Part shown: one piece after another, positions 3,001 through 64,000 of the stretch
How the letters are laid out: the number at the start of each line of letters is the position of its first letter
How positions within the stretch are numbered: position 1 is the stretch's first letter
Made by a program: the position numbers and the translations under genes
The notes under the pieces: generated by a model
What the model was told of the DNA's origin: nothing
The model's database searches: none
Seen by the model: the letters and a program-made list of their open reading frames with translations, nothing else
Source of the DNA: Cenococcum geophilum
Lineage: Eukaryota
Direction of reading: 5' to 3'
DNA: 64,000 nt
Assembly: GCA_050273025.1 (NCBI GenBank)
Contig: CP158635.1
Span: 11,284,001 to 11,348,000, forward strand

Positions 3001-3195
3001 CGTGTTAAATACTAAGATATAAATATTCTATATCTACTAAATTTAATCTATATAATTTAAAGTAAGTATCTCTATCGTTAAGCACAGCCGTATAGGAGGT
3101 ACATTAGCTGTAATCGTAATTTACTAAAACTAGGCTAGACGCTAATAACACTAAATCAATCCAGCTTGCCTTTAAGTTTCGTACTTAAGATACCT

Positions 3196-3924: not shown

Positions 3925-4077
3925 AGCTAAAAACTTACCTATAGAATGTAGTGAAAATTAGATCTAGGTAGTTAACCATTTTTAGGCTAATGTATATGCT
4001 TTTAGGTATATTCTTATAGCAGAATCCCTAAGGATCTCTATATTATTAATAAGCTAATAAGATAGGAATGGCTATAA

Positions 4078-4170
4078 CTACCTCGCCTACTTACCTACTC
4101 ACCTACTTACCTACTTACCCGCCTTACCTACCTTATCTACCTTATCTACCTTATTTGCCTCACCTACCCC
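4078..4170. repeat. Degenerate 8-9-bp tandem repeat (CCTACTTA / CCTTATCTA type)
   Basis: cctcgcctacttacctactcacctacttacctacttacccgccttacctaccttatctaccttatctacc is directly visible. Confidence 0.75.
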
Positions 4171-9543: not shown

Positions 9544-9639
9544 AAGATTAACTCCCCGTCTTCCTCTAAAACCAACTCCCTGTCTTCCTTTAAGACCAAC
9601 TCCCCGTCTTCCTCTAAGGCCATCTTCCTATCTTCTCCT
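9544..9639. repeat. 24-bp tandem repeat x4, probably an acidic repeat (EEDGELVL) in a minus-strand pseudogene
   Basis: Units: aagattaactccccgtcttcctct / aaaaccaactccctgtcttccttt / aagaccaactccccgtcttcctct / aaggccatcttcctatcttctcct. Confidence 0.75.
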
Positions 9640-11879: not shown

Positions 11880-12270
11880 TAGGAACTTCCCTCTTTAGAA
11901 GCTAACGCCAGCTTCCCCAGTAAAGAGATAGTAAGCACTTCTTTTCTTTTCTTAGAGCTTAGTGCCATAAAGGTAAAGCCGTACTAAACTTAATAGTTAT
12001 TAAAGCAACCTATTAATCTTTATTAAGGCGTTAAAGGTTTCTATACTTTCTCTTAAATAGGTATCCCCTCTTATAGGGGATTGCGATCGCCAAAGGCTTA
12101 CGGGCATTATAGTGGCGTCCTACTATATAGGAATAAGTACAAAAGAGAGTATTTATAGGGGTACTTAAAGTTATGTAAAGGACGCCACTAAGAACGCTAA
12201 TATAGCCATAGCTACATTAGCGCTCTTAATGGCGCCCTTCGCTCTTAAACTAGGTTAACTCTATACCTCG
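11880..12270 (-). pseudogene. Small hypothetical gene relic, paralog copy 1 (copy 2 at ~16173-16600)
   Basis: Direct similarity to 16173-16600 (e.g. aagagatagtaagcactt...gttattaaagcaacctatt...cttaaataggtatc). The minus frame reads DTYLRESIETFNAL...LSLYWGSWR.LLKREVP. Confidence 0.55.
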
Positions 12271-15200
12271 CTACAAACCTATTCCTCTTCTTACTTAAAG
12301 AGATGCAAAGTTTATTAAATATATTTATGCCCCTAATCCCCCTAAACGACGGCGATCACTAAAAGGAGAATCTACTACTATAACCACTACTACAATTTAC
12401 CGACTAGTATATAAATAAACCACTAAAAGACCTCTAGAGTTAATACTAAACCCCAAAAGCAATTAAAAGTAAGCAGCTATATAGCTCGCACCTTTCTACA
12501 CCTACTAACCCTATAGGCATCCCGTACCTCACGTTTAACCATATACACCTCCACCGCCTATTTAATCCGCAGCCTTCCTACTTACTAGTCGCAGCTTATT
12601 TATACCCAATTAGTCTTCTATAGGTATTTAGTACAGAGGAGTAAGATTAATAATGAAAAATGCCCTAAAACCTACCGTAATATTCCAAAAAGGGTAACTT
12701 AGCTAAACTGCCCCTTAATACATCTAAACGCTATATAGAGTACTCTTACATAACATAAATAGGCTTTTCGCGTAGCCCATTAAAGGAGTTATCTATAATA
12801 CTCTCCACCAACTATTAGCCGCTATAGCAATATCATAGCTTCTTATTACTAGAAACAGCCTTCCCACCTACTAAAACTACCGCTTTACTACGTTAGCTAA
12901 AGAGCCCAATTTCCAGACTTTTCTTTTGGTCTATAACTTTAAGAGCAACTAGGAGGTATTAGCAGTAATAATTAAGTCGTACTAGGTAAGGTCTTCTTCC
13001 CTAACCCTAAACGCTTTATATTTACACTTTATAGCAAGCTGCAACATTTTAATTATACGGCTTATTATCTGCTATTATAACAATCCCTAAAAACTTCTCT
13101 AATGTCCTAAGCGCGGCAATTAAGAGCGCTATAAAATACAATTTAAATATACCGCAGCACTATTTACTATATATATTTAGATAGCAGCAAAATTCTAGCA
13201 GCGGGAAGGAAAATGCAATTTGCTATTATTTTCTAAAGTGGGCCTTTAAACAGAAGAAGTAAAAAGCGTAGATTAGTACTAGTGGGAAGCCTATACTATT
13301 AGCTATTAGAAACTAGGGTAGACTTACCTAAAGTCCATAAGAAGGCAATTTTATTATATAGTGGGAGTAATACCAAATAACCGGAGGGCTAATAAACACT
13401 TTCACCTAAGCCTATATTTAGATGGTTCTTATCTATAAGTATTTTATCCGTATATTATTATATATCTACTCTTTTCTAGTGCTTAGAGCATACTTTAAAG
13501 TGCATCTAGCTTACTTAAGTACCATTATCATCTAATAAATTAGCCGCGAGACCTCCTTTGGTGACCTCCTAATAATAAGCATACTAGCTATGCGCATTTA
13601 CCCCACTTTATATAGTTACATTTATCTCATAGCGGCTTTAAGCCATCCCTAACCTTTATTGCTTATTAATTATCTTACACTCTGTTACTATCTAGAGCAT
13701 AACTAGAAGCAAGCGGTATTTGTCCGTTTATAGCCTCTAAATATACATCATGGCACCCTCCTATTTATAGTCTCGGCTTAACGCCTCGCATATAGGCATT
13801 TACCGGTCTTTGTTATCCGCAGCAACTATATTATACCGCATACTCCTATTAGGAAACTATAAGACAGTATACGTGTCTACAATACCAGGTTGGAGATAGG
13901 GACCGTATTTAGTTAATCTAGCCTAACCCGCATACGTATAAATAGGCTCTTTAAACCCTCCTTAGCATCTAGCTTTAATTATATAAGACCTTTATCTCTG
14001 TCGCCTTGAAAATTATCTTATTATTCTACCGAAATCACCATTACCCCTCTTAATACAATGGATTCTACCGCAAATGAGTAGGTATTAGGCGTTGCGAGCC
14101 ATAAGAAGTTTATTGCGTCTGAAAATTATAAAACATTTAAGGATAAAGAGATTTTATCCCTAAAAGTAGGGCCCCTACTTATCTAATATAGAGGATAAAA
14201 TCCTAATATTATAGATTACAGAGGTATCTAATATAAATTTTACTACCTATCTCGTAGATATAAAGGTAACCCTTTAAGAAACCAAGTATTAAGTAACCCT
14301 TACTATTAATAAAATATGTATAAGCCAAGGTGCGGAGCTCTTAGTTAATATAGTAGAGGGTTCCACTTTTAATATTCCTACAGAACCTACGTTGCGAAAA
14401 GCTTATCTCGCTAGTTTTATAGCATACGGCTAAACCCTATAGAGGGTTTATAAGAGGCAACTTAAAAATATATATTCCAAAGGGAGACTATATAGGGAAG
14501 TAGTAGTCCAGTATTTAGTGGGTTTCCTTATAGTATTAACAGTTGGTAAATATCTTGCCTTCTAGAGCTATATAGCGGGGAACTATTAACAGATAGATAT
14601 CGTATAGATACTTAAACTAAACCTTCTACTAACAGCCTATATTTCGCCCACTACAATTTAGTTACTTAATATTCTTTATTTAATGTTAACTAGCCTAGTA
14701 GCGGCGCAGAGTAGGTCTCTAATTAGATTACCTCCCCGCTACCTTATAGCCTATATATCATTCTATCGCCGCCTTTTTGGCAAAGGTTAGTCTATTTAAT
14801 ACTAGCATCTATTATCTAGTTAGCCCTACTATTATTATATATAATTACATTTAAGCCCACTATAAGCGTACCCACTATCTCCGCTATATAGGAAGATCGC
14901 TTCCCGCCCTAAAAGGTAAACTTACTTTAGGGAGTTATATACCTCAAGGGACAAACCGCTTACCCATTCTTAAATTATCGCCATAAAAAAGCTCCTTTAA
15001 TGCACAGCGCTATCTTATATAAGCTTCGACCATACTGCTTAAACGGGCGAGGAAATATAAATAGGGTAAAGATCGAGCGCACCATATAGAACCTTAGCAG
15101 CAGTTTAAAGCTTTAGAGATATTTTCTGCAAAGTAAAAGCAAGCAGTAAAGAGAAACTTAATATAGCCGCAAAGATATCCACTATAGCCAGCGCTCCTTT

Positions 15201-16172
15201 AACAAAGAATATACCTAAACTAATTAGACGAAGTTTATGCACCCTACTATATCATTAAAGTAGTGTACTAAAGGGCCGATTGCGATCCCTGCTAGCGTAT
15301 AATAACTTATTAGATTATAGGATTAAATAAAGCTACCGTATAACGGCCTCACTAAAAAAGAGGAGCTCTTAAAAAGAGGGCAAGATCTAATTACTATCAA
15401 GTAGGTTAATATCTAGGCATTGCTATACCACTAGTAGTAACTTTAGAACACTACGGTAATGTAATAACGCTATATTATATTTAACGGCTTACGTCCTACG
15501 CTCCTAATAGCTAGGGTATAGCAATATTAGGTTCTAGTTTAATAGCATTTTTACACTAAAGCAAAGCTAATATCTTAAGCCTCTATGCCTATTAAAGTCC
15601 CTTATTAGCTACTCAAGTCCTCCATTATAGTTAACTAGGACAGCTTAGCTTCCGCTATTAAAGATAGTATCTTCTTCTATACTTCGTATTAATCTTTTTA
15701 GTATCCGTTTTACTTAAGCAATTCTATCCAACTAACGAAATCGTCCATCCCGTCTATTCTTAGTGATTCCGTTTAATTATTTATTAACTCTAAGTTATAT
15801 AACTTCTAGTAACTATCTAACTATAGCCCATTCTAGGTAAACTATATAAATACTAAAGAATTGCATAGCTTTAAGGGATTAGGGCAAAAGGCTAATATTT
15901 TCTCTATCTATAAAACAGTTAGAGTGTAGGATATATATATAGAATAGCTCCTAACCTTAATAGACTTAGGTTTAGCGAATATTATACGGAAAATCTCTTT
16001 ATATTTACTTTTAAACCTCTAGTTCCAGTTATTATTAATACCCTTTTTTAAAGCCATTTAATACGCTGCCTTATATAAAAAGCTAAGATATTAAAGAGAG
16101 GGCAAAGGCTAAGGGAATTTTAGAGCGGGAAGAGGGACAGGTTTACTATTAAGATTTAGACACATCTAATTA

Positions 16173-16600
16173 AGAATTTCCCTCCCAGAAGTTAATGTTA
16201 GTTTCCCTAAAGAAGAGATAGTAAGCACTTATTTCCTTTTTTTAGAGCTAAGTACCGTAGAGGTAAAACTATATTAGACTTAGTGGTTATTAAAGCAACC
16301 TATTGATTTTTATTAAGGCGTAAAATGTCTCTATACTTCCTCTTAAATAGGTATCTTATAGGTTAAAAGATTAATACAAAGTATCCTAAGCGTGGCTTAT
16401 ATAACTCTAAGGATATTATAGTCGCTTTTATAAAGGATTGTATTACAGTAGCGTCCTACTAAGGAAGGGTTAATAAAAGTGTAGGAACGGTCTAAAAGTT
16501 AGTAAGCCACTACGCCTAACGCGAAGTCTCTATAGGGATACTCGGTTATATAAAGGGCGCTTTTAGTAGCGCCTTTACTCTTAACCGGGTTAACTCTCTA
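16173..16600 (-). pseudogene. Small hypothetical gene relic, paralog copy 2
   Basis: Aligns by eye with 11880-12270. Confidence 0.55.
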
Positions 16601-17162
16601 TCTTACTGCGTCGCAAGGGGAGGATATAGAGAATTATGCCCTAGTGGCTAAAGGTGTATATAAATATAACTAAAGGACTTCTCCTAAACGTGTATATTCT
16701 ATCTCTACTAGAGTATATTATAGAGCAAATAACCAATATAGTGTTCCTAGGCGGTTAGGTCCCTAAAGATGGAGAGAATATTTCTAAGGTAGATAGGGCT
16801 TCTTTACACAAATTTAAAGAGTTTTCAGAGCCGGAGCTAGGAAAAGTTAAAGTAAGGCTATTATCCGCATAATTACTAAGCGAAATTAACAAAGTTATAG
16901 GTTGTTAAGATAATTAGTGCTTATTTTAGCCTATACTCCAAGCTCAGAAGTTATATAACTTAATATTTAGACTATCTCTACTAGACGAGTAACTATAGTA
17001 CTAAGATCCTAGCACAATTTAAGCATAATAGACGCTAGGTCCGGTGTAAGAGCTAGTCTAATCGTATTTTATATATATAGGATAGAGGATTAGCTCTAGA
17101 TGGTTTAGGGAAATATATAATAAAGCTTAACCAAAATTTCATAAAAGTGGTTCGCGGTGCGG

Positions 17163-17378
17163 TTTAGACTAGTATATATATAGGTTTTAGAACCTTAACA
17201 GCCAGGCACTTCAATAGGCCTATAGCTATGGCGGCGATTAGGGCTTCAAGTGCTTATTTATACCCTTTTATTTAGACTAGTATATAGGTGGGTTTTGGAA
17301 TCTTAATAACTGGGTACTTCGTTAGGCCTAAAGCTACGGCGGCGCTTAGGACTTAAATTTCTTATATTTACCCTTTTA
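17163..17378 (+). repeat. 108-bp tandem duplication x2 (36-aa unit if coding)
   Basis: tttagactagtatata...tacccttttta occurs at 17163 and 17271. One frame reads LD(W)YxxGFWNL...SYGG(Q)...PFY twice. Confidence 0.7.
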
Positions 17379-17749
17379 TATACTTAGGAGACCTAAAGCT
17401 CTAAATAGTAGCTAGCCTCAAATCTCAAGAACTAAGTGCTCGGATTAGCAAGCTATTTCCCTACCCTATCTCTATACTTATTAAGAAATAAATCTTATTC
17501 TTCCCTAAAATATAATATCCGTAAATAAAGTTCATTATTTAACGCCTACAGTAATAAAACTTTAACCTTTGCCTATCTTTACTACCCGCAATACTAATAG
17601 CGTCCCTATATTTCTTAACGCCTAGAGTATAGTTAGAGAGTGAAGTAATATATACCCCCGTAGGGACCTTATCCGTATTATATACGCTCTAAGTTCTACA
17701 GACTTTTAGGTACATAACCTTTTATACATTTTCCACTAGTGTATATATA

Positions 17750-18955
17750 TGCATGCCTATGACCGGCTAAACTCCCTATTGGAAATTAGGTAGTAGAGCA
17801 TCCTTATATTTTTAGGAAGTTATCATAGTTTACGAGCTATATCTATAACTTAGCTTCTAAGATAAGTCTTCTATAAAACGCTATAAACAGTATTATAATA
17901 ATCTCACCATATTACACGCCCCTCTTTTTCGTAGAGATATTAAATAACCTATCTATAAATTAGCCTAGATATCCTAGATTAGTCCATCTTCTTATTAGAA
18001 TCACCTTTAATCCTCTTCCTAGATTATTAGTATCTCCTTTAACCCTCTTCCTAAAGCAGCTATTATAACTCTTCTATTACAGCCATTACCACTACTACCG
18101 CCGCCTCCGCCTCCACCTCCTCCGCCTCCTCCTCCTCCTCCTCCTCCTCCTCCTTATCCTCTTCAGGATAGCGATAGTCTAGAATTTAAGGATAAAACCT
18201 AGAAACTATGGAAACCGGCTATATTTATATAGCAAAAACTGTTACGGGAGATCGGCATCTATAAAAAAAGCAAAGTTATACTACTTTAGGAGGTTGCTAA
18301 GCGTATAACTAAGTACCTATCTATAAATAGTCCTAGGCTTAAGGTAGAGACTCTTTTAAAGGGACCTAAAAAAACCAAAAAGGAAAGGGACTCCACTCTT
18401 AAGAAGCTTAAAATATATTTAGAGGCATAGGGCGTAAAGGCTCTTATAGAGGAGGTCAAAAAAATTGCTAAAGATTCTCTAAAGGGTAGAAATAATACTA
18501 ATACATATTACTTTGGCCCGAATATTATTTAAGAACTTCAGTTAATAGCAAATATAGATAGTAGGGTTATAGTTAGCAAAGACAGGGAGCCTTTCTCTAG
18601 CATACTTAAAGCTTTCTCTAGCCTTCCAAAGATTTATATTCTTAATCTCTTCCTAGATAAGGAAAGAGACGATCTTTATTTTATTAACTATTCTATTTCT
18701 AAAGCCGAGTAGTTTTAAGGTTTAAAGAAAGTAGATTTCCTAAAGGAAGATTAGTATCTATCTACTAAGGATACAGACGTACAGGAGGGTAGGGAGACAG
18801 CGAGCTTACTAAACAAAGATTTCTCATTGTCTACTAGAAATAAAGCCGTATAAGAGGGTAGTAGAGCTAAAATAGGGGGAGATAGTTTTACAGTTCTAAC
18901 TATAGTGGAGTAACTAGGTAAGAGTTTCGGGAACAAAATTACGGGTTAGTAATAA
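17750..18955 (+). pseudogene. Proline-rich hypothetical protein relic containing a (CCT)n tract
   Basis: The poly-Pro (ccg/cct)n tract at ~18098-18153 is in frame with ~250 downstream codons interrupted only by TAA/TAG. The 5' boundary is uncertain. Confidence 0.5.
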
Positions 18956-24781: not shown

Positions 24782-25029
24782 TGTGACGGGCTTATATAAA
24801 TTCCTCTAAGACGAAGCTTATAGATTGCTACTATACAAAGATACTAAGCTAAAGAGAAGAAGAGGAGGAAGGCCCTTAGGGGTTAACGCAAATATAAAGG
24901 GGTCGCCAAGGTGCTAAGTGGTAAGCGAGCCAATAGCGATTTTCCATGCCTAGTATGGAAAATCCTAATTAGTTAGCAGATGTTAGGGTCGGCGGAATTT
25001 AGCAGGTAACGCGCCCTAGTACTATTATA
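24782..25029 (-). mobile_element. RIPed solo LTR (family A2)
   Basis: Termini tgtgac...agtactattata (= RIPed agtgccgttaca). The flanks atatt/gcatt are a TSD differing only by transitions. Shares acaaagatactaagctaa with 31549-31717. Confidence 0.7.
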
Positions 25030-31152: not shown

Positions 31153-31379
31153 TATTACGGCACTAGTAGAACTTGGCAGAACTTCACACTAGCAAGTTGT
31201 CACAGATTGCCGCATATTGCGGTCACGTAACGCGAAGATATTATAAAACATTAAGCGGCGCTACTCTTCTTCTCCTTTCCTTTCCCTAGCTTTAAATTCT
31301 TATTTATAGATAATCCAATTATATAGGCTTACGCGTCCCTCTTACTATACTCGTGCCTTAATTAACTAAGTCACTAACA
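31153..31379 (+). mobile_element. RIPed solo LTR, family A
   Basis: Termini tattacggcact...attaactaagtcactaaca (= tgttacggcact...attgactgagtcgctgaca). Flanks cctat/cccgt. Homologous to 53744-53970. Confidence 0.8.
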
Positions 31380-40056: not shown

Positions 40057-40955
40057 TACTCTAAGTATACGTTATAGTATAATATAGGATTAAGGATATT
40101 TGCTATATAAGCGCATAGTATCTAAGCCATAATGCAATATTATTATCTCTTTAGCTACTTCCGTTAAAGTCTTACACAATAGCTCTTTTGCTACTATAGT
40201 ACTCATTACTTTACTTAGAGACAGCCCTTAAAAATCCCCCAAATGCCCTTATTCCGTATACTGCTTAGCTTACTTCTTAGCCTAGTAAGCCTTTTACCTT
40301 AACTTCTTCTATTTTCACCTCTAATTATATATTTACTAAAAGCACCTAGCTTACGTATAAGCACTCTATAGCTTAGGCTGTATTAGGTTTTAGCTCCATA
40401 TTTATAGCAGTACAGTTACTTTCTTTTTAATTGGAATTAAAAACACTATCTATTATATTTAAACCCTCTACTTCCTTAAACACCTTATTATACTCTAGGT
40501 CGCTTACTTCTAACTTAAACACAAAGTTTAACGGACTTTCGCCTGCGTTTATAGCAATATTTAGGTAGTTAGGGCTAATAAAATTCATCAGAACTATGTC
40601 GCCTTAGCTAGGCCAAGTATTACATTCCTTTTAGCGTCTTCGATATAGTAGAACCGCGGCTTATTAGGGGATAAATAGTAGAGGCAAAGGCGAGGGGGTA
40701 GTCTTTAGCTTAACAGGTTAAAGACCAGGGGAGCGACAAAGCGTATTATTAGAGTCGTAGTATAAGCTAGACATAGAAGGACACAGAAACGTAAAATGTA
40801 GTCGGTTAGGAGGTATAAGTAAAAGAGGGGATCTTAGGAGTATTCGCTTATTAAAATCGGCTTATTATTCACTTAGGTGTATAAGGGGATAACATCAATG
40901 CGTTAGACGCCCCCCCTATTAGTATAGGTTAAGAAATAAGCAAGTCTAAAGTGAC

Positions 40956-41157
40956 TGTTACGGCACTGACGCGCGTAACCTGGATAGGGCCTAGTCAGGG
41001 GGGTTCGCTTACGTCTTGGCTCCATGTATATAGACGTGTCCTTTCCACGACCTTCTTCTTCTCCTCATCTTGATATCCGGGTCAATAGACTACCAATTGT
41101 ACAGGCTTGCATACGTTCTACGGCGCTCATGCCTCGATTGACTGAGTCGCTGTGACA
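40956..41157 (+). repeat. 5' LTR
   Basis: tgttacggcactg...gagtcgctgtgaca, with a TATATA box at 41027-41032. Confidence 0.97.
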
Positions 41158-41159
41158 TT

Positions 41160-41169
41160 ATATCAAGAT
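41160..41169 (+). promoter_or_regulatory. Putative self-priming primer-binding site
   Basis: ATATCAAGAT lies 2 nt after the 5' LTR and is the exact reverse complement of LTR-internal ATCTTGATAT (41067-41076). There is no TGG-starting tRNA PBS. Confidence 0.7.
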
Positions 41170-42142
41170 CCCTCAACCGATCGCAGGCTGTTGTATCCCA
41201 GGTCAAAGAAGCCCTGTGGCCTAGGGTAGTTGATGGGTGACGGAGCCCTATATACTAGCAGGCAAAGGAAGGAAGGAGAGCCTAACTCCTATAACAAAGA
41301 AGGCAGGAGATGCATACTCTGAGACAAAGCAGGAATCATTGTTATTGTTATTGAAGCCCTACAATCGTAGGAATTATCGAAGATCTACAATCGTAGGCAC
41401 CCTTACTGTGGTCCTGTGGTGGCTGGGTATGGAATCCCTACACTTATAGGTACCCTCCCTTATGTTCTCTTCTTTTTTTCTTTTCTCTCTACCAAACGGC
41501 CGCCTATGCTATGGGGAAGCACGTGCCGAGACGGTAACCTCTTTCCGACCGTACGAACTCGACGACCGACCGTACGTCTCCTTCGGACGCTTGCACCGTA
41601 CTGCTACCTAAATAGTCCTTTTTGATGGATACTGAGCTATGTATACTGTGAGGAACGAAATCGGTTGATACTGAGACTAGTGCTATGCACTGGCTGCGAA
41701 GAACGACCCCGACGGATACTGAGTTGTACGAGCTGTGAGGAACGAAATCACCAGGACTATCAACGCTGGCATCACTCTGCTATTGACTACCGATCGTGCC
41801 GATATGCATACGATCCATATACTCGACAACAGTAGCGCCAATACGCCTGCTACTACGACCTGACTACAACTGTGCCGATACGCCTACAGTCTTCTGACCG
41901 TACGATCGTGCCGTTACGCCTGCGATCCACGACTTCCGCTTGCATCGTACTGCTACAACAAACGACTGTACTGCCCTGCCACAGTCGACGAGACAATGAT
42001 CGTGCCTCTACGCCTACGATTACTCGACCAATCGATAGCCCGAGCTCTACGTTCGACCTGCTATCACAAGACAACCGATAGACGAGCTCTGCGCTCGACC
42101 ACTATCGTTACCGCCGCTAGTACCGTACTACTACCCGAACAC

Positions 42143-42331
42143 AGCTGCTCCTACCTGCAGCTAAACCTTAATTCGACCACTACTGCTCCTGCCTGCAGTA
42201 CCACAATTGACTTCTGCTGCTACGCCCGCAGCACTACGATCGACCCTCGCTGCTCTGCCTGCAGCATTCCAACTGACACTTGCTGCTCTGCCTGCAGCAT
42301 CTCATTGACTACTGCTGCCCCACCTGCAGCA
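42143..42331 (+). repeat. Six ~33-bp units, each containing a stem-loop (TGCTGC-N7/8-GCAGCA type)
   Basis: Stems start at 42143, 42181, 42215, 42249, 42281 and 42313. Confidence 0.85.
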
Positions 42332-42413
42332 AATAACTACAACTGTACAAGAGGTAGAAGACAAGCACCTAAGGATAAAGCTTGAGGGCAAGCTTTTTTG
42401 AAGGGGGGGGTAA

Positions 42414-42615
42414 TGTTACGGCACTGACGCGCGTAACCTGGATAGGGCCTAGTCAGGGGGGTTCGCTTACGTCTTGGCTCCATGTATATAGACGTGTCCT
42501 TTCCACGACCTTCTTCTTCTCCTCATCTTGATATCCGGGTCAATAGACTACCAATTGTACAGGCTTGCATACGTTCTACGGCGCTCATGCCTCGATTGAC
42601 TGAGTCGCTGTGACA
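42414..42615 (+). repeat. 3' LTR
   Basis: Identical by eye to 40956-41157. Confidence 0.97.
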
Positions 42616-43753
42616 GTGACATAGCGGGGCCAGGTTATTTTATTTGCTATACTAGCAGGGGGGGCATCTAACCCATTTATATTACCCCCTTATAAACGTC
42701 CTGTCTCCTTTACAAAGTAAATTATAGCTTTAACCGCGCTAATGTCTAGGAAACGCCACCTCGACAAGGGTGTGGCCGGTATAGGTCGGCTACCTCCCTA
42801 TTTATAGTGGCAATATCTAGTCAAGTTTACTTTAATTACCGTTATATATCGCTTATAACCACACTTATATAACCTAAAAAGTATTCGCCTAGCCCGCTAT
42901 TATTACACAACGCTAGTGTTATAATGACTTAAGCGGTAGGGATTCTCCTTAAGCAGCGGCAATAAGATAAACCTAATATTAAACATTATCGTCTAGGCAC
43001 CTATTTCGCACCTATCTAGGGGTTTATATATATATATATATCAATTAGAAGTCCGTGCGCAGATTTTAGGTAAGGAAAACTTATATAAAGATTAATCTAT
43101 AAAGAAAATAAGGCTATATATACACGGTAGTCCTATAGTAAAGGAACACTATTTCACGTAATAAGAACGATCTCCGTAACTTAAGCATAATAGCAACAAT
43201 ATAATCGTAATTTTTAGGTAGGAGAGGTCTTTAACGTTTATAAATAGCTATAATATAAAGTATATGCAGAACTATAGCAAATATTAATATATATAAAGAG
43301 ATTGAGTTACTAAAAGTTAAAGTACCCCTTATATATCCCGGCTTGGTGTGTCTCGCTTTATAGTAGGGGACGTTAATAAGTACAATATTAGTAAGATTAG
43401 GGGCCGGTCTACCAGGTTTAAGGCAATTTGGTAATATAAATTATAGCTACTAAAGCGGATCCCTATTAGGCCTATACGGACTACGCCTTATATATATATA
43501 GGGAGAAAACTCCGTCTAAGAAAACCCCGTATTCCATCTCTCCGCCATTAAGCCCCACCTATATAGTACCTACAGGTTGCCTATCCTCTATATCCTTACC
43601 TTTAGTCTCTTTAGGGACCGCTACTACCTATAGACGCGCTAGTATTTTAAATTTTTGCTCCACTACTATAATGCTCTTAAGGGGCGCCTGTTACTATCCG
43701 CCCCCTTACCTTCTACCGCTATTCTTCCTAGCTAGAAGGTATGTAAATAAGGG

Positions 43754-49237: not shown

Positions 49238-49965
49238 TTCTTCCCTAATAGTTATTTATTTTATTTTTTCTTATATAGCTTAAAAACAAAAGACAAAAAA
49301 AGAAACTTAGAAGGGGGGCGTTTTCTTATTTAAATTTTATTTGTCTTATAGCTTTCCTTTATTATACTTCCTCTTCTTTATTTATAAAATAACTATACTA
49401 TAAATAAAACTACTCTTTAGTGTTATTTATATCACAAGCCTTACGTTTAAAATCTTACCTCCTATTAAATGCGAGATTCTTTACAAACATAAATTCCTAT
49501 ATAGCATTGCCACGATTTACAAAAAGCATATAAAATCTCTATAGGTTTTTATTTATAGTGCCTTAATATAAACTATATTTCCGTTTAGTGTATTCTTTAT
49601 AGCTAGTTATTTTAACATATTAAACTAACTTACTTAATCCGCCTAATCTACCTAATCTATCTAATCTATCTAGTCTACCTAATTTACCTAATCCGCCTAA
49701 GCCATCTAAGCTACCTAGTCCTTTCAATCCTTCTAGGCAGTAATACCTACGCTTCCCTATTGCGCCTTACACTAATCGACATAGATTTTAAGACGGTGGG
49801 ATAGTACCGCTAGGGAACAAGTCCTTTTTCCGTTAATGCCTCTATAACAAGGCGTACTTAGTAGGGCTCAATCTATTAAATACTAAAGAACTATAATAAA
49901 TTGGCGAAGAATGACTAAGGTAGGCCTTAGCGACTCTAAGCTAAAGCTAAATCGTACCCTACTCA
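49175..49965 (+). repeat. Segmental duplication copy A (copy B at 53274-54725)
   Basis: Colinear similarity: acgcgtagaagata...aaagaaacttagaaggggggcgttttcttatttaaattt...gcattgccacgattta...ggcgtacttagta...agcgactctaagctaaag. Confidence 0.9.
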
Positions 49966-53354: not shown

Positions 53355-53580
53355 TATTACGGCACTGGCAGAAAGCGGTAGCTATAGTAGACGTTATAGT
53401 AGACGTAGGGCTTACGTAACTCTTACGTAACTAGGGGATTATATATAACTCCTCACGTTACTACTTATCCTTTCCTTTCCTTTTCTTCAGCTTTAGATTC
53501 TTGTTTATAGACAATCCAATTATATAGGCTTGCGCGACCCTTTTACCATACTTATAGCTTAATTAACTAAGTTGCTAACA
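53355..53580 (+). mobile_element. RIPed solo LTR, family A, 226 bp
   Basis: Termini tattacggcactgg...aactaagttgctaaca with a perfect TSD AGCTC. Absent from paralogous copy A. Confidence 0.9.
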
Positions 53581-53743
53581 AGCTCTTTAATTATTTTTTT
53601 CTTATATAGCCTAAAAATAAAGGACAAAAAAAGAAACTTAGAAGGGGGGCGTTTTCTTATTTAAATTTGTTTCTTTTATAGCTCTCTTTTATTAGTATTA
53701 TTTAGTATTATAAGCCTTACCTTTAAAACCCACCTCTTATCGA

Positions 53744-53970
53744 TATTAGCGACTTAGTCAATTAAGATATAAGCACGGCAAAAGGGTCGCGCAAGCCTAT
53801 ACGATTGGATTGTCTATAAACGAGAATCTAAAGCTAAAGAAAGGAAAGGAGAAGAAGGGGAGCGCCGCTCGAAGCTATATACAATCTTCGCGTCACGTGA
53901 CCGCAATATACGGCAATCTATAGCAACTTGCCAATATATAGTTCTACTAAGTTCTACTAGTACTATAACA
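53744..53970 (-). mobile_element. RIPed solo LTR, family A, 227 bp
   Basis: Reverse-complement homolog of 31153-31379 with a perfect TSD ATCGA. Confidence 0.9.
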
Positions 53971-54466
53971 ATCGATCTATTATATATAGCCTAGCCACCC
54001 TAATATAGCTACCCCTCGCTACTTAAATATAAGATTCTTTACTAACATAAATTCCTATAGGGCATTGCCACGATTTATAAGAAGTATAGGAAATCTCTAT
54101 AGGTCTTTATTTATAGTACCTTAATATTAATTATATTTCGGTTTAGCGTATCCTTTACAGCTAGTCGTTTTAATATATTAAACTCATCCGCCTAATCTAC
54201 CTAATCTACCTAATTTACCTAATTTACCTAATCTACCTAAGCCATCTAAGCCACCTAGTCCTTTTAATCCTTCTAGGTAGTAATACCTGCGCTTTCCTAT
54301 TGCGCCTCCCGCTAATTAATATGGATTTTAAGACAGCAGGATAGTACCACTAGGGAATAAGTCCTTTTTCCATTAATGCCTCTACGGCAAGGCGTACTTA
54401 GTAAGGCTCAATCCATTAAATACTAAAGAATTATAATAGATCGGCGAAGAATAACCAAGGTAGACC

Positions 54467-58181: not shown

Positions 58182-60600
58182 ATAGCAACAAATCTTATCG
58201 TAGGTCTTCTGCTTCTTCTCATCCCTTACTTCTTCTTAGATTATAATAGCGTTAAAGCAACGTTATCCGCGGCCATAATAATTATATAGGCTCCTAGGTG
58301 GCAAAATACTACTATAAAAAGAACGTCTTCGACGCTACCTAGCGACTTCACTACTTATTCTTCAGCACAGACCATAATCTAAGAAACTCAGACTAATAAG
58401 TTAACTTCCGAAGATGGCGTTCGCACTGTTATTAGCTCATTAGACAGTCCTATAGATTTTTAAAGCTCTTCCATCCTTTCTAAGAGCACTAGCCTCGTAG
58501 AGCCTTAAACCATCACAATCTCTTTTAATATTGGACCCCATTATTCTCGCATAAGCACTAGGATAAACTCAAGTTTAGTATCTACTACCTTACTATTAGC
58601 AGTAATAACAATTACAAATATATATAGACCTCTACTTTTAAAGAGCTATTTAGTCCTCTTTATAGCCACTAGTCTTATAGGGCCTTAGAGCAGTATTACA
58701 ATTTATATTAAGGTCGAATCTTAGCTTTCTCTTATAGGTACTAGGATAGATATAACTCTAACACCCACCAACCTTTAATAAACGGTAACAACTATAGCAA
58801 ATCTAAACGGATTATCACGTTTAGAAAGCTTTTCGATTATCTTAAAGGGCACTAGCTTTATCCTCTCTTAAAGCCTTAGTATAACTTATACTAAAGCCTT
58901 ATCCTAGCTCTCTCTTATAAGGACTAAAAATAACTTAACTTTAATATCTATTAATTCCACAGGGGCAACTATAACTACTACAGAAATTTTAAATGGTGTT
59001 TAAACTTTAAATAGTCTTCAGATTTCCTTAAAGAGTAATAGCCCTATAGAACCTTAAAGCGCTATTATAGCTTATACTAAAGCTAATCCCTAGATCTCTC
59101 TTATAAGCACCACAACAGATCTAACTTTAAGATCCGTTAACTCCCTAGGGACGGTTAAAACTATTACGCAACCCTCTAACGGACTATTATACTCTACGGT
59201 ACTACCGCTTATATCGGATTTAAGCCAGATATCTAGGTTAATATATACTTCTCTAAATTCCCTTAGTAAAGCTTCCTAGTCTACAAGTTTAATCCCAAGT
59301 TTAAATAGATATTCAAGCATTTTAACCACCCTTTCCAAATCCACACAGCTACTCTCTTTCCTATTAACACGGCCTACAAACAGGGAGGGCCTTATAATAG
59401 CTAGCAGTACTTTTACGTTCAGCTACACCGTATCTATCTTAAATTCTATAAACCACGCATCTATTTTAGTTCTCGCCAGTACCATAGCTATCTTAGTTTT
59501 AACTCGCAACACACCTATCTTAGTTCCTATTAGCACCAAAACTGTCTCAGTTTTTACCAGCACTATATTTATTTTAGCTTTTACCAGCACTATATCTACC
59601 TCAGTTCCCACTAGCACTATATCTATTTTAATTCCTACTAGCGTTATATCTTCCTTAGTTTCTAATAGCATTATATCTATTTTAATTCTTACCAGTACTA
59701 TATCCATTTTAGTTCTAACCAATACTATATCCATCTTAAATCCTATAAGCTCTACTATTAGACTTCTATATATATCTCTAGATCCTACAGCCTCTATTTC
59801 TACCTCTATCTCTTCTTTTTATATTATAAAAGTTATAGCTACTATATATACGCTTATACGGATAATTCCAACTTCCCTAATAACGCTATAGTCACTTAGA
59901 CGATTTTTAAGCGCTTTAGACGTCGCTCCTAGTTCCTTAATTTCCTTAAGTTCCGCAATTCCAGCTAAAGAAATAGCTACGGTTTTACTACTAGGTTTAA
60001 CTAGACAGGACTAGATAGACTAAAGCAGCACAACAAATTTTATACTAGCTACCTTAATAATAGATTTAGGGTCCTTAAGTACTAAGCTTCTTAGTATCTT
60101 TCCTATATTAACTTCGGAAATTGTTCTATTAAATATAGCTATAGGTAGAAGCTACTCTAAAGCTTAGACGAGCTCGCAGATCTTAGATAAACCTAATACG
60201 CTAATTACTTCTTTCCGTACTATTATTTCCTCTAATAACAAGTATTATACCGCTTCTACCACTACGCAAATATAAGTGCCAAATAACGGCACTCTATTTG
60301 GTAATTCTTTACAAAGTTATATAGTAAAGGCTAAAAGTATTAGGGTTAGTCTTAGTACAATCACTAGGATACTAGCCTTCGCAGCCGCGATTATATTACT
60401 ACTAAGGCAATATAGGCGGCGCTAACAGGGCATAATAAATATAAGAAGGCCAATTATTTCTCGCCCTTTTCCAATCTAGGGATACGTTTTAGCTCTACTA
60501 TTTAACACTATATAATATATACGGGAGTTTAGATATATTATTTATCGTTCTCTAATATATAAGCTAGCGTAAAGTACCAAAGTAAGTTAATAGTACTTCC
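58182..60600 (+). pseudogene. Ser/Thr-rich type-I membrane/cell-surface protein relic with an internal 27-bp repeat
   Basis: Signal peptide (M)ATNLIVGLLLLLIPYFF, a long S/T-rich frame, 9-aa repeats at ~59430-59740, and a TM segment I.V.L.TIT.ILAFAAAIILLL followed by RQYRRR near 60340-60422. Confidence 0.65.
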
Positions 60601-62059: not shown

Positions 62060-62587
62060 TTCCCTAGTAGCCACCTCGTCCCCTTAGTTAGCTTATTTAA
62101 GCTTAATCTATACTCTTCGTGGCTGCAATAACCCTTATCCTAAAGTACCTACTCTAAGTGCAGATACCATATACTCCTAGAGGTAGTCTCTATAAGGCGT
62201 TTTAGCTAGGTTTAAAAACAAAAGGCATATCTATTATTGAGAGTAACTTCCTTAAAATTCAGAGTTCCCCTATCTTCTCCCCAAATCGACTACAAAAGGC
62301 CGCGGACAACCTATTATCTAGACAGTATAACGGCCCCCCCCCGCTAATCTAGATTATAGAGGACGAGGAATAGGAAGTTAAAGAAATCCTAGCAGTTAAA
62401 AAGGACCATAATGTCTTAAAATACTATACAAGCTAGGTAGGCCATGATAAAGACCTAGAATGGTATCCTGCATCTAATTTTAAGTATTCCCCCCATAAGC
62501 TACGGGATTTCCACTTAGCCTAACTAGACCTCCCCAAACTACCACGCAAACTAGAAAACTAGATTAAATGCTAGGAAGAAGGGTTGG
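62060..62587 (+). mobile_element. Gypsy/chromovirus integrase C-terminus plus chromodomain relic
   Basis: [21 protein letters not shown]...EDEE(W)EV.EILAVKK...LKY..S(W)VGHD.DLEWYPAS.FKYSPHKLRDFH. The fragment is cut off at 62587. Confidence 0.9.
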
Positions 62588-64000
62588 TGTATAATTACAG
62601 CACCTATTGTACCAAACGCGTGCTTACGCGTTCGGTACACTAGGTACGCGTTTACGCGTTCAGTGCACTAACCACTCGCTTACGCGTCTGGTGCACTTAT
62701 AAAGCACTAACTAATTAGGGGGGAGGTGCATTAGTATATAGACCACGTAGTCTGCTTTATATAATTAACAGTTACCATCTAAACAAGTATACAATACTAC
62801 ATGTATTTCGTGCCCGTGGATACGACTCACTTATGCTATTAAGTTAGTACAAACACTGATCAGTAAGCGCGCACAGATCAGCAATTACTTAACACCTCCC
62901 CCTAAGCGATACACACGACAGCGACCACCCGTTTAGACTCCTAGTACGACCTGCTAGAAGGTCGGAAGTTGGGGATTACGGACTTATCTCCAACTCTATA
63001 TACTTATTTAAGTCTTAGTACAGTTTACTAGAAGTTATAGACGCGAATATAGACCTATACAGAACCCCTATCCTTAACCCCCTTAAACCTTAAACCTCTT
63101 TAGACCTTTTACGGAAACTTCCTACCCTCCTACGAACTATTATGGACCCGTTAATTGATTTTACAGACTGTTATAAGACCTCCCCCACCCGTTATAAGCT
63201 GCTACTACCCGCTACGCACTATATTACACTATAGTATGGTAGATATTAGTAAGCAAGTCAGCGAAGGTTAAAAGAAGTGGAGATAAGGCGTTGACGTTAC
63301 GTCTATAAACGATGTTAACGACTATATTAGCTTTAAAATCCTTAAATATAAATACTTTAAGCTTATAAATAACGACCTGTGGGAGTAATATAAGGAAGAC
63401 TTTACGGACTTTACGGAAGCTATTTTTAAGGCTTACAACCCTACTGCCATCCGTAACCTACGAACCCTTTTATGTCACCAAGGCGTATAGGTTAAAAGGG
63501 ATAAACAAGTCACTGTTACACGGTCTCTATATAATATACTACGTAAGGAGGACCAAACGGAATAGATTAAAGAGCAGATCTTAGATTATATTAAAACCAG
63601 CGACCTCTTTACCTTCTTTAAACTTAATAGAATCTCTAGCCTTATAGCTAACCTATTTAACCGAATTCGTTCCACAAACCTAAGTGGCATTAGAATTAAT
63701 CTTACTGGCTAAAGTATACTTAATACTTAAGTTACGGACTATAATACCCCCGTAACCCAAATTACGGACCGTAATACCCCTATAAACCAAAATACGGACT
63801 AAATTACCCCTATTGTTTAAGTTATAGATCCGCAAGCCATATATCTATAAGCCACAGATCCGCAAGTTATAGATCCGCAATCTACCTAAGTAAAGACCTA
63901 CGGTAAGGAGCTAGCTAACCTAGCTAAGCTCTATACCGACGAATCTAAGTATAGTAGTAAAAACGATAACTTTAACTTTAAACTTACTATCTTTACGGAC
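62588..64000 (+). mobile_element. Nested LTR retrotransposon (Copia-like): 5' LTR, leader and gag start; runs off the window
   Basis: Starts TGTAT and interrupts the Gypsy frame. The LTR-like block runs to ~62900. A gag-like frame from ATG 63236 reads DLWE(Q)YKEDF.DFTE...LRTLL..QGV(W)V...GKELANLAKLYTDESKYS..NDNF.FKLTIF. Confidence 0.75.

What the first reader, a model, noticed from the sequence alone, without database searches (positions are those of the whole stretch)
40956..42615. Pristine, recently inserted non-coding LTR mini-retroelement inside a RIP-destroyed region
Seen: identical 202-bp LTRs, a perfect GTGAC TSD, a PPT and abundant intact CpA/TpG, in a window where nearly everything else is RIPed. 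The interior has no gag/pol and is built largely from short repeat families. Inference: this is a young, possibly still active parasite of an autonomous Gypsy element that inserted after RIP stopped acting here or that evades RIP. RIP in Neurospora needs roughly 400 bp or more of duplicated sequence, so the paired LTRs alone are a poor trigger, but multiple genomic copies should be hit.
Basis: partly seen in the sequence, partly recalled or inferred. Interest (0 to 1): 0.8.

Follow-up and report, generated by a model that had tools for sequence, protein, structure and literature searches.

The report
Young self-priming non-coding LTR retroelement
A 1.66-kb non-coding retrotransposon with identical ends sits freshly inserted in mutation-wrecked repeat DNA of an ascomycete fungus (probably Cenococcum geophilum); it belongs to a multi-copy, strongly transcribed family derived from Tf1-like Gypsy elements, a tidy but fairly ordinary case of a known kind.

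Summary
Two identical 202-bp TG..CA LTRs (40956-41157, 42414-42615) are flanked by a GTGAC target duplication and a polypurine tract. The interior is 1256 bp and non-coding. GC is 0.51, against 0.34 in the RIP-type flanks.

It is one copy of a multi-copy family. Ten metagenome contigs hold sisters (81-92% identical; 1.35-1.54 kb; 5-bp target duplications; GC about 0.5 in AT-rich flanks). One contig carries a gene 100% identical to a Cenococcum geophilum protein.

The element has no tRNA-type primer site. Ten bases just after the 5' LTR are complementary to an LTR motif 34 nt downstream of a TATA box. A related 6-kb RIP-killed chromovirus has the same arrangement with three compensatory changes. 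This indicates Tf1-type self-priming.

RNA contigs identical to this copy are about 1000 times deeper than the flank.

LTR differences in sister copies are nearly all transitions, all of them at CpA/TpG or CpG, so the family is not RIP-proof. The simplest reading is that this insertion is younger than the last RIP episode in a rarely sexual fungus.

No intact partner was found, and transposition is not shown. I rate it a new member of a known kind, of moderate interest.

The parts
40951..40955 (+). Left copy of the 5-bp target-site duplication, GTGAC
40956..41157 (+). 5' LTR, 202 bp, TGTTAC...GTGACA. Predicted U3 is 40956-41066 and R-U5 is 41067-41157.
   Evidence: 202/202 identical to the 3' LTR. 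The U3/R boundary is inferred from the self-primer motif.
41027..41033 (+). TATATAG box in the LTR, 34 nt upstream of the predicted RNA start
   Evidence: Read from the sequence. TATATA is kept in 16 of 16 LTRs and the full TATATAG in 15 of 16; L009's is TATATAT. Promoter function is inferred.
41067..41076 (+). ATCTTGATAT, the predicted first 10 nt of the RNA and the self-primer
   Evidence: Complementary to 41160-41169 (2 of 5000 LTR shuffles reach 10 nt). Invariant in 16 of 16 family LTRs. Paired with the primer site in the MFE and centroid fold.
41160..41169 (+). Primer-binding site ATATCAAGAT, 2 nt (TT) after the 5' LTR; self-priming type, no TGG
   Evidence: The related L009 chromovirus has ATACTAAGCT paired with LTR AGCTTAGTAT, which is 3 compensatory pairs.
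41158..42413 (+). Non-coding interior, 1256 bp, 46% in short direct-repeat families. Repeat positions: 41348-41450 (26-nt units), 41588-42134 (20-27-nt families), 41624-41749, 42189-42331 (33-nt units with GCUGC..GCAGC hairpins).
41306..41405 (+). Segment nearly private to this copy; on average 0.9-1.9 of 7 sister copies align here
   Evidence: An RNA contig identical over 41307-41437 has depth 5911 (table 8).
42378..42395 (+). Hairpin AAGCTT-GAGGGC-AAGCTT, followed by a T-run (42396-42399)
   Evidence: Folded. The L009-type and L002-Gypsy-type elements have AAGCCT..AGGCTT at the same place, a compensatory change.
42400..42410 (+). Polypurine tract GAAGGGGGGGG
   Evidence: Kept in the sister copies, with one G-to-A variant in L002.
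42414..42615 (+). 3' LTR, 202 bp
42616..42620 (+). Right copy of the target-site duplication, GTGAC
24782..25015 (-). RIP-mutated LTR relic of the related L009-type chromovirus; carries AGCTTAGTAT and ends CCCGTCACA
62257..62586 (+). Relic of the integrase C-terminus/chromodomain region of the L009-type chromovirus
   Evidence: tblastn: 71% aa identity over pol residues 1699-1808, E 5e-31. Also seen by tblastx.
53357..53576 (+). RIP-mutated LTR relic of a third related LTR type, the type found at the 3' end of the L002 Gypsy. Further relics lie at 53748-53858 (-) and 31280-31375 (+).
   Evidence: nhmmer E 3e-8, 1e-11 and 5e-7; alignments

Best explanation
This is a recently integrated copy of a non-autonomous, non-coding LTR retrotransposon family. 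It is TRIM-like in plan but 1.35-1.66 kb long. The family descends from a clade of self-priming (Tf1/MAGGY-like) chromodomain Gypsy elements in an ascomycete, most likely Cenococcum geophilum.

Proposed mechanism:
1. The LTR promoter (TATA at 41027) starts RNA at about 41067.
2. The first 10 nt fold back on the site just after the 5' LTR (41160-41169) and prime minus-strand synthesis as in Tf1, with no tRNA.
3. The G-rich tract at 42400-42410 primes the plus strand.
4. Gag, RT/RNase H and integrase come in trans from an autonomous relative.
5. Integration makes a 5-bp duplication.

The copy is unmutated because it inserted after the RIP episode that wrecked its surroundings and has seen no effective RIP since. 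RIP acts only in the sexual phase, which is rare or cryptic in this fungus.

Shown: the anatomy, the family, the related chromoviruses, the complementarity and its covariation, and RNA presence.
Inferred: the RNA start, self-priming, trans-mobilisation, the species of the window, and the reason for the lack of RIP.
For: Anatomy. Identical LTRs, target duplication and polypurine tract. No coding signal. No Rfam family.

Family.
- A 23-nt U5/primer-site pattern found 10 metagenome loci. Four hold complete copies (L001, L002, L008, L010), four are cut by contig ends, and two are truncated or interrupted.
- 4 of the 5 complete copies, counting the window, have perfect but different 5-bp target duplications.
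- Copies have GC 0.489-0.512; their flanks have GC 0.310-0.357 and a RIP index of 0.43-0.57.
- In the DNA run X1, summed contig depth over the interior is 4,173-18,226, and up to 47,859 over the 3' LTR. The 8 X1 contigs listed have depths of 65-110 each. Interior length variants also occur as DNA.

Self-priming.
- A 10-nt complement sits 2 nt after the LTR; 2 of 5000 shuffles reach it.
- The LTR motif is invariant in 16 of 16 LTRs although its surroundings vary.
- The 5,977-bp L009 element has the same layout with AGCTTAGTAT/ATACTAAGCT, which is three compensatory pairs. Its own target duplication is CCCGC. Its Pfam hits are RVT_1 at 54.4 bits and RT_RNaseH_2 at 75.6 bits, with sub-threshold SH3_Tf2-1 and chromodomain-like hits.
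- The helix is in the MFE, the centroid and the alifold consensus.
- Self-priming is documented for Tf1, Tj1, Maggy, Skippy, Cft-1, Boty and others (passages in PMC4600332 and PMC6934838).

Relatives. The polypurine-tract regions are 86% identical over 42 nt. The L002 Gypsy (RVT_1, RNase H, Integrase_H2C2) has an R-U5 resembling the element's (72 nt at 79%; alignment).

Transcription.
- 20 runs from 14 studies hold part of the stretch; 10 are on record as RNA.
- In RNA run X5 a contig identical to 41307-41437 has depth 5911, while the contig identical to flank 40573-40804 has depth 5.6.
- Raw RNA reads of X21 lie almost only with the first mate on the minus strand, for example 273 against 0.5. 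This means sense RNA if the library is of the usual stranded kind.

Timing. In L009 a sister copy with intact composition lies 334 bp from the RIP-killed chromovirus (GC 0.365, 122 in-frame stops).

Species. The L008 gene is 100% identical to a C. geophilum 1.58 protein. PMC12910237 reports that 73% of that genome is RIP-affected, that the fungus is putatively asexual, and that some TEs are unmutated and expressed.
Against: - No intact autonomous partner, and none with this LTR, was found. Both relatives are RIP-killed, and the best intact Pol in the protein search is only 56% identical to the RIP-mutated query.
- The RNA 5' end was not mapped. Depth bins only show a rise between 40932-41053 and 41054-41175.
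- The primer-site side of the helix was fixed by my search pattern in 10 of 11 copies, so only the LTR side and the L009 element are independent.
- Contig depth is a poor measure of expression and of copy number. X5 and X6 give the same numbers and are probably one data set.
- X21 reads are mostly 90-95% alike, so they come from relatives, not this copy.
- Zero differences in 202 bp bounds the age only loosely.
- That the window is C. geophilum is inferred, not shown.
- Lying in RIP-affected DNA is expected for most insertions if 73% of the genome is such DNA.
Confidence: 0.75

Rival explanations
1. The family actively escapes RIP. Its copies are short, indel-ridden and diverged enough that the homology search of RIP rarely recognises them, so copies stay GC-rich even through sexual cycles.
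For: All 5 complete copies keep GC 0.49-0.51 although the family is multi-copy. Pairwise identity is 81-92.5%, with 271-506 gapped columns. The longest exact shared stretch is only 43-177 bp. GC-rich TRIMs and MITEs in the RIP-active Parastagonospora nodorum were proposed to escape by compactness (PMC8549362, passages).
Against: The copies are 1.35-1.66 kb long and at least 81% identical. That is above the roughly 400 bp and 80% limits quoted for Neurospora in PMC8549362. 22 of 23 LTR-LTR differences in sister copies are transitions, all at CpA/TpG (12) or CpG (10). In L010 and L002 they are all on one LTR, 10 of 10 and 5 of 5. So RIP-type or methyl-C deamination does reach the family. Rare sex explains the pattern without any escape mechanism.
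Confidence: 0.15
2. The element no longer moves. It is kept as an LTR-driven non-coding RNA gene family, and the identical LTRs reflect gene conversion, not youth.
For: RNA contig depth is very high relative to the flank. The interior holds hairpin arrays (z -1.87, with 2 of 100 shuffles folding as well). No live partner was found.
Against: The interior evolves fast, with no conserved core beyond the primer-site and polypurine-tract regions: 0.59-0.94 identity per 50-nt bin and many indels. There are several independent insertions with their own target duplications. The priming and integration signals are exactly the conserved parts. The fold energy of the 5' region is ordinary (z -0.44).
Confidence: 0.07
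3. The insertion is an assembly artefact, for example a chimeric join that placed a repeat copy into the wrong AT-rich context.
For: No listed contig in the DNA run spans the whole stretch. No junction-spanning piece is among the rows shown (most rows were not shown).
Against: A perfect 5-bp target duplication flanks complete LTRs. The same architecture occurs in independent metagenome assemblies. Run X1 holds 0.70 of the sampled words, more than the element alone can give (at most 0.62).
Confidence: 0.03

Closest known systems
TRIM, terminal-repeat retrotransposons in miniature (Witte et al. 2001, seen only as a reference; definition as quoted in PMC6934838)
   Same: Direct terminal repeats of 100-250 bp (here 202 bp), a non-coding interior ending in a polypurine tract, a 5-bp target duplication, and dependence on an autonomous element.
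   Different: It is 1660 bp long and its sisters are 1352-1536 bp, against 'less than 1000 bp'. There is no tRNA-complementary primer site; the site matches the element's own LTR instead.
Self-priming chromoviruses: Tf1, Tf2 and Tj1 of fission yeasts, and Maggy, Skippy, Cft-1, Boty, Grasshopper and Afut1 of filamentous fungi (PMC4600332 and PMC6934838, passages)
   Same: The primer site next to the 5' LTR is complementary to a stretch inside the LTR at the presumed RNA start. The autonomous relatives in the same contigs have RT, RNase H, integrase and, below Pfam's cut-offs, Tf2-type SH3 and chromodomain-like hits.
   Different: The element encodes nothing. The complement is 10 nt, whereas I recall 11 nt for Tf1. 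Cleavage of the primer and the RNA start are untested.
RLX_TRIM_Sinope and other GC-rich TRIMs/MITEs of Parastagonospora nodorum (PMC8549362, passages)
   Same: High-copy non-autonomous LTR elements that keep a high GC content in a Dothideomycete genome with strong RIP.
   Different: Those elements average under 400 bp, and compactness was proposed as the means of escape. This family is three to four times longer, so that argument does not carry over.
LARD, large retrotransposon derivatives
   Same: A non-coding interior between LTRs. In L002 a longer non-coding array of the same interior motifs (over 3 kb) ends in a polypurine tract and an L009-type LTR.
   Different: LARDs are several kb long (a size limit of about 4 kb is recalled, not checked). 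The window element is 1.66 kb.
ta-TRIM of Echinococcus multilocularis (PMC4558846; title and start of the abstract only)
   Same: A small non-autonomous LTR element with massive transcription.
   Different: An animal host and an unrelated sequence. I read nothing beyond the search listing.

Membership tests
TRIM | Two direct terminal repeats of 100-250 bp | tested here: met
   202-bp identical repeats
TRIM | Whole element under about 1000 bp (definition quoted in PMC6934838) | tested here: not met
   1660 bp; sister copies are 1352-1536 bp
TRIM | Interior starts with a primer site complementary to a tRNA 3' end | tested here: not met
   The bases after the LTR are TTATATCAAGAT, with no TGG. 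There is no tRNA gene in the window. Priming by an internal tRNA fragment could not be tested because the host tRNA set is not available.
TRIM | Interior ends with a polypurine tract and has no gag/pol | tested here: met
   GAAGGGGGGGG at 42400-42410. No Pfam hit, no pol similarity and no codon-position bias.
Self-priming (Tf1-type) LTR retroelements | Primer site next to the 5' LTR is complementary to a sequence inside the LTR | tested here: met
   10 nt; 2 of 5000 shuffles reach it. The LTR motif is invariant in 16 of 16 LTRs. There are 3 compensatory pairs in the related L009 element.
Self-priming (Tf1-type) LTR retroelements | The complementary stretch is the very 5' end of the RNA | tested here: inconclusive
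   A TATA box lies 34 nt upstream. RNA depth rises between bins 40932-41053 and 41054-41175. No read-start peak was listed there.
Self-priming (Tf1-type) LTR retroelements | RNase H cuts the folded-back 5' end to release the primer | not testable with these tools
   Needs biochemistry or cDNA mapping.
Derivative of chromodomain Ty3/Gypsy elements | Shares LTR termini, polypurine-tract region and priming layout with elements that encode RT, RNase H, integrase and a chromodomain | tested here: met
   L009 3495-9471: RVT_1 at 54.4 bits, RT_RNaseH_2 at 75.6 bits; Tudor-knot at 19.7 and SH3_Tf2-1 at 17.1 bits are below their cut-offs. L002 3724-6489: RVT_1 at 80.6 bits and Integrase_H2C2 at 30.8 bits. 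Intact relatives carry PF00385 Chromo.
RIP-mutated repeat | CpA/TpG depletion with TpA excess and low GC | tested here: not met
   The element scores 0.91 at GC 0.508; the rest of the window scores 0.53 at GC 0.338. The flanks meet the criterion and the element does not.
LARD | Non-coding LTR element of several kb (limit of about 4 kb recalled) | tested here: not met
   1660 bp

The most novel reading that the evidence does not exclude
A self-priming, non-coding LTR family is transposing now in a putatively asexual ectomycorrhizal fungus. It is among the most abundant RNAs of the mycelium. It is steered into RIP-made heterochromatin by the chromodomain integrase of its helper. Its fast-changing hairpin and sub-repeat interior is what lets it out-compete the helper's own RNA for packaging. 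On this reading a parasite keeps expanding the genome after RIP has killed most of its autonomous relatives.
Probability: 0.25. Interest if true: 0.5.

Novelty: new member of a known kind. Interest (0 to 1): 0.35.

Why it matters
The finding gives a concrete, sequence-defined example of the 'TEs that escaped RIP and are expressed' reported in general terms for Cenococcum geophilum (PMC12910237).

It also shows that a non-autonomous LTR element can inherit the tRNA-independent, Tf1-type self-priming of its parent lineage. A full-text search for 'self-prim' + 'non-autonomous LTR' + 'fung' found only a bivalve paper. The C. geophilum genome paper contains no TRIM, LARD or non-autonomous wording in its text or held supplement.

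The family would be a handy marker for three questions:
- dating RIP episodes, and so cryptic sex, in this fungus;
- strain typing by insertion polymorphism;
- testing whether an intact helper chromovirus is still active.

It does not change how RIP or LTR retrotransposition are understood.

Tried and rejected
- **Whole genome.** It is not held, so copy counts, RIP index per copy and the search for a partner in the source genome could not be done.
- **Earlier notes of this scan.** None, either by place or by sequence.
- **Other copies in the window.** blastn found none. A purine/pyrimidine-collapsed (RIP-tolerant) ungapped scan at 82% or more over 120 nt also found none. Only distant LTR relics appeared, with a profile.
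- **L005 as a possible autonomous copy.** The LTR plus about 200 nt is followed by unrelated RIP-mutated DNA. 12 of its 24 frames of 55 aa or more gave no Pfam hit, nor did six-frame read-through. I rejected it as a partner.
- **Pfam on 24 long frames of the window and loci.** Nothing relevant.
- **Rfam on 40800-42800.** No match up to E = 1. The element carries no known small-RNA gene of the Cassandra kind.
- **tRNA scan of the window.** None found.
- **Viral-contig scan with the U5/primer-site pattern.** No match.
- **Protein Atlas for the L008 gene.** It gave only 'Ascomycota'.
- **Target preference for a palindrome.** The window's empty site lies in the loop of a palindrome with arms of about 60 nt, but 0 of the 4 other complete copies show this. 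Rejected as a general feature.
- **Empty-site alleles.** No joint from 40955 to 42616 is among the 15 joints shown (72 were not shown), and the runs laid are probably of the source strain, so nothing can be said.
- **Chromodomain targeting.** All 10 evaluable sites have flank GC of 0.39 or less. With 73% of the genome RIP-affected (PMC12910237), this is weak evidence, so I keep it as an inference only.
Full report
**1. The observation**

- Two 202-bp direct repeats (40956-41157 and 42414-42615) are identical. They begin TGTTAC and end GTGACA.
- GTGAC flanks the element on both sides (40951-40955 and 42616-42620).
- GAAGGGGGGGG (42400-42410) lies 3 nt before the 3' repeat.
- The element has GC 0.508 and a (CpA+TpG)/(ApC+GpT) ratio of 0.91. 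The remaining 62,340 bases of the window have GC 0.338 and 0.53.
- In the rest of the window the observed/expected values are CpA 0.53, TpG 0.32 and TpA 1.47. CpG is barely depleted, at 0.92. This is the classical RIP signature.
- Short direct-repeat families cover 581 of the 1256 interior bases.

**2. The element is not coding and carries no known RNA gene**

- The longest open frame (173 aa, stop to stop) has no Pfam hit. It was the only frame of the element that I scanned.
- A related Gypsy Pol finds nothing in the element by tblastn.
- Across eight aligned copies, substitutions fall evenly on the three codon positions of that frame (0.167/0.170/0.166).
- Only 4 of 32 indels are multiples of three, and the open frames differ from copy to copy.
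- Rfam gives no match up to E = 1.
- The window has no tRNA gene.

**3. It is one copy of a family**

No genome is held for this window, so I used two other routes.

*Route (a): a scan of JGI metagenome contigs.* A 23-nt pattern spanning the U5 end and the primer site gave ten loci.
- Four loci hold complete copies (L001, L002, L008, L010; 1352-1536 bp).
- Four are cut by contig ends (L003, L004, L007, L009).
- Two are truncated or interrupted (L005, L006).
- Counting the window, 4 of 5 complete copies have perfect but different 5-bp target duplications: GTGAC, CTATT, ATACG and AGGAC. L008 has none.
- Every complete copy has GC 0.489-0.512. Their flanks have GC 0.310-0.357 and a RIP ratio of 0.43-0.57.
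- Copies are 81-92.5% identical over aligned columns, with 271-506 gapped columns per pair.
- Much of the length variation lies in the sub-repeat parts of the interior.

*Route (b): public sequencing runs.*
- 20 runs from 14 studies hold part of the 2660-base stretch I gave. Ten hold half or more of its words, and ten are on record as RNA.
- In the DNA run X1, the summed contig depth over the interior is 4,173-18,226, and it reaches 47,859 over the 3' LTR. The 8 X1 contigs listed have depths of 65-110 each.
- Several interior length variants (skips of 34-140 nt) are present in that DNA run too.
- Summed depth is not a copy number, but this does indicate tens to hundreds of related copies.

**4. 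Host**

The only real gene in the loci is a 1015-aa frame on L008. It is 100% identical to a Cenococcum geophilum 1.58 protein and 75% identical to the next species, Glonium stellatum.

The DNA runs that hold the window's words have contig totals of 167-209 million letters. This fits the 178.5-Mb genome reported for that fungus (PMC12910237, abstract).

That the window itself is C. geophilum remains an inference. For that genome the paper reports the following (sections 7-10 and 12 read):
- 78% of the genome is TEs, and 94% of TEs lie in RIP-affected regions.
- Sex is putatively absent or cryptic.
- TEs are expressed.

The paper contains none of the words TRIM, LARD or non-autonomous in its text. 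Its held supplement contains neither TRIM nor LARD.

**5. How it is primed**

The bases after the 5' LTR are TT-ATATCAAGAT, with no TGG, so the canonical tRNA 3'-end primer site is absent.
- ATATCAAGAT (41160-41169) is the exact complement of ATCTTGATAT (41067-41076) inside the LTR. Only 2 of 5000 LTR shuffles reach 10 nt at that position.
- The motif lies 34 nt downstream of TATATAG (41027-41033).
- ATCTTGATATCC is invariant in 16 of 16 family LTRs, although the sequence on both sides varies. My search pattern fixed the primer-site side but not this LTR side.
- An RNA starting at 41067 folds with its first 10 nt on the primer site, around a U5 stem-loop, in both the MFE and the centroid structure. 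The overall energy is ordinary (z -0.44).

The strongest evidence comes from a relative, the element at L009 3495-9471.
- It is 5,977 bp long and has LTRs of 242 and 233 bp, 89% alike, and its own target duplication, CCCGC.
- It has a single reading frame, broken only by 122 stop codons.
- The frame matches RVT_1 (54.4 bits) and RT_RNaseH_2 (75.6 bits). Tf2-type SH3, chromodomain-like and integrase zinc-finger hits fall below their cut-offs.
- Its LTR begins TGTGACGG, contains a (CTT)n run followed by AGCTTAGTAT, and its post-LTR sequence is TT-ATACTAAGCT.
- This is the same layout, with three positions changed on both sides so that all 10 pairs are kept.

This is the arrangement described for Tf1 and Tj1, where the primer site is complementary to the 5' end of the element's own mRNA (PMC4600332, passages). 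It is also listed for Maggy, Skippy, Cft-1, Boty, Grasshopper and Afut1 (PMC6934838, passage citing Lin and Levin 1997).

The RNA start itself was not mapped. RNA depth only rises about tenfold between bins 40932-41053 and 41054-41175.

**6. Its relatives**

Three LTR types in these data share several features: the termini, a (CTT)n run followed by a 10-nt primer-like motif, and a hairpin, T-run and G-run just before the 3' LTR.
- The hairpin is AAGCTT..AAGCTT in the element and AAGCCT..AGGCTT in the other two types, a compensatory change.
- The polypurine-tract region is 86% identical over 42 nt between the element and L009.
- The third type sits at the 3' end of another RIP-killed Gypsy on L002. 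That Gypsy has RVT_1 at 80.6 bits, RNase H, and Integrase_H2C2 at 30.8 bits; SH3_Tf2-1 is below its cut-off.
- The R-U5 of this third type resembles the element's (72 nt at 79% by blastn; alignment).

The window itself holds RIP-mutated relics of both relative types:
- an L009-type LTR at 24782-25015 (-);
- a Pol C-terminus at 62257-62586 (+);
- third-type LTRs at 31280-31375 (+), 53357-53576 (+) and 53748-53858 (-).

On L002, an array of more than 3 kb of interior-like segments (8018-11295, minus strand) ends in a polypurine tract and an L009-type LTR. So the sub-repeat interior occurs behind more than one LTR type.

No intact partner was found.
- Both autonomous relatives are RIP-killed.
- The search used L009 Pol residues 880-1780 read with X at stops. 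It returned 906 proteins at E of 1e-50 or below among 8000 scored.
- The best hit is 56% identical. All but one of the 120 listed carry the Tf2-type SH3 domain together with RT and RNase H (most also rve), and many carry Chromo.
- None of the 120 listed is named as C. geophilum.
- TE genes are usually left out of annotations, so this is not evidence of absence.

**7. Transcription**

- In RNA run X5, a 131-nt contig identical to 41307-41437 has depth 5911. Most sister copies lack this segment.
- The only contig identical to the flank (40573-40804) has depth 5.6.
- X6 gives the same numbers and is probably the same data set filed twice.
- Variant contigs with skips, at depths of 334-13,367, show that several family members are represented.
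- Raw reads of X21, which carries a second coded organism label and was added for sharing X1's species label, are mostly 90-95% alike and only partly on the stretch, so they come from relatives.
- Those reads lie almost entirely with the first mate on the minus strand. In the usual stranded libraries this means sense-strand RNA.

**8. Why it is not RIP-mutated**

The family is not exempt from RIP-type mutation.
- The LTR pairs of the four sister copies differ at 3 of 184, 5 of 204, 5 of 184 and 10 of 202 positions.
- 22 of these 23 differences are transitions, and all 22 lie at CpA/TpG (12) or CpG (10).
- In L010 (10 of 10) and L002 (5 of 5), the A/T state is always in the 5' LTR.
- Private substitutions over whole copies show a mild excess of the same kind in L010 and L002, and none in the window copy.
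- In DNA run X1, more places show C-to-T or G-to-A variants (105 and 99) than in the RNA run (29 and 31). This fits the presence of mutated, silent copies. I could not separate element from flank in that count.

The copies are well above the size and identity limits for RIP quoted for Neurospora, about 400 bp and 80% (PMC8549362, passage). The compactness argument made for the short TRIMs of Parastagonospora therefore does not apply.

The simplest account has three parts:
- Insertions accumulate during long asexual phases.
- They are hit lightly or heavily whenever a sexual cycle occurs.
- This copy, with 0 of 202 LTR differences, has not yet met one.

Two observations fit that order of events: the sharp composition boundary at the target duplication, and, on L009, an intact-looking sister copy only 334 bp from a RIP-killed chromovirus.

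Zero differences in 202 bp bounds the age only to roughly less than 1/(2 x 202 x rate).

**9. Where it lands**

All 10 evaluable insertion sites have flank GC of 0.39 or less. Chromodomain integrases can direct insertion to H3K9-methylated chromatin (MAGGY; PMC4600332, passage citing Gao et al. 2008). That would explain the pattern. However, with 73% of the host genome RIP-affected, and with selection against genic insertions, the pattern is weak evidence.

**10. Verdict**

This is a real, young, non-coding LTR retroelement of a multi-copy, transcribed family. The family descends from Tf1-like self-priming chromoviruses.
- It works like a TRIM but fails two points of the strict TRIM definition, size and a tRNA primer site.
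- GC-rich TRIMs in RIP genomes are in print, as are TEs that escaped RIP in C. geophilum and massively expressed TRIMs.
- The self-priming layout in a non-autonomous fungal element appears not to be. The search returned one paper, on bivalves.

I rate it a new member of a known kind, with an interest of about 0.35.

Noticed in passing
window 40877-40939 and 42635-42697: The insertion site lies in the loop of an imperfect palindrome. The arms are 63 nt and 79% complementary, and would be about 30 nt apart once the element is removed. None of the 4 other complete copies has such a context.
   Followed up: partly
window 3199-3957 (-): A 253-aa stop-free frame in heavily RIP-type, AT-rich DNA, with no Pfam hit. 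That is unusually long for such sequence; it may be a relic of a TE gene.
   Followed up: partly
window 59280-59888 (+): A 203-aa stop-free frame rich in Ser/Thr/Ile/Leu with repetitive STISIL-like units. It has no Pfam hit and is probably a low-complexity repeat.
   Followed up: partly
window 49255-49926 and 53586-54466; also 11855-12065/16146-16355 and 23686-24626/25410-26356: Further degraded direct-repeat pairs spaced 1.7-4.6 kb apart, probably LTRs or tandem copies of RIP-killed elements. The 53.6-kb member starts right after the third-type LTR relic at 53357-53576.
   Followed up: no
window 62600-62700: A short run of ACGCGT-containing units (GCTTACGCGTTCGGTACAC-like, three to four copies) follows immediately after the chromovirus Pol relic.
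   Followed up: no
L002 8018-11295 (minus strand, my orientation): An array of more than 3 kb made of at least 7 segments similar to the element's interior motifs (nhmmer E from 7e-4 to 3e-26). It ends in a polypurine tract and an L009-type LTR (7439-7620), like a larger non-coding relative. Its 5' end lies beyond the locus.
   Followed up: partly
L002 757-6489: The sister copy on L002 (1281-2761, target duplication ATACG) is inserted inside the Pol gene of a RIP-killed Gypsy. A reverse-oriented solo LTR of the L009 type (3105-3286) sits in the same gene, so this is a nest of three related elements.
   Followed up: partly
L004 2077-8876 (my orientation): Another LTR pair (249 bp, 93% alike, TGTAGAAGG...CCACA, with a (CAGT)n run) 6.5 kb apart. 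It is a different LTR family and was not characterised.
   Followed up: no
L005, about 10800-12700: By eye, the read-through translation shows protease-like and integrase-like motifs in Copia order (for example MLDTRAA and LVFGAYP). Pfam reported nothing, so this rests on reading alone.
   Followed up: no
Runs X5 and X6: The run filed as a fungus metatranscriptome and the run filed under the organism's own label give identical contigs and depths at this locus, so they look like one data set deposited twice.
   Followed up: no
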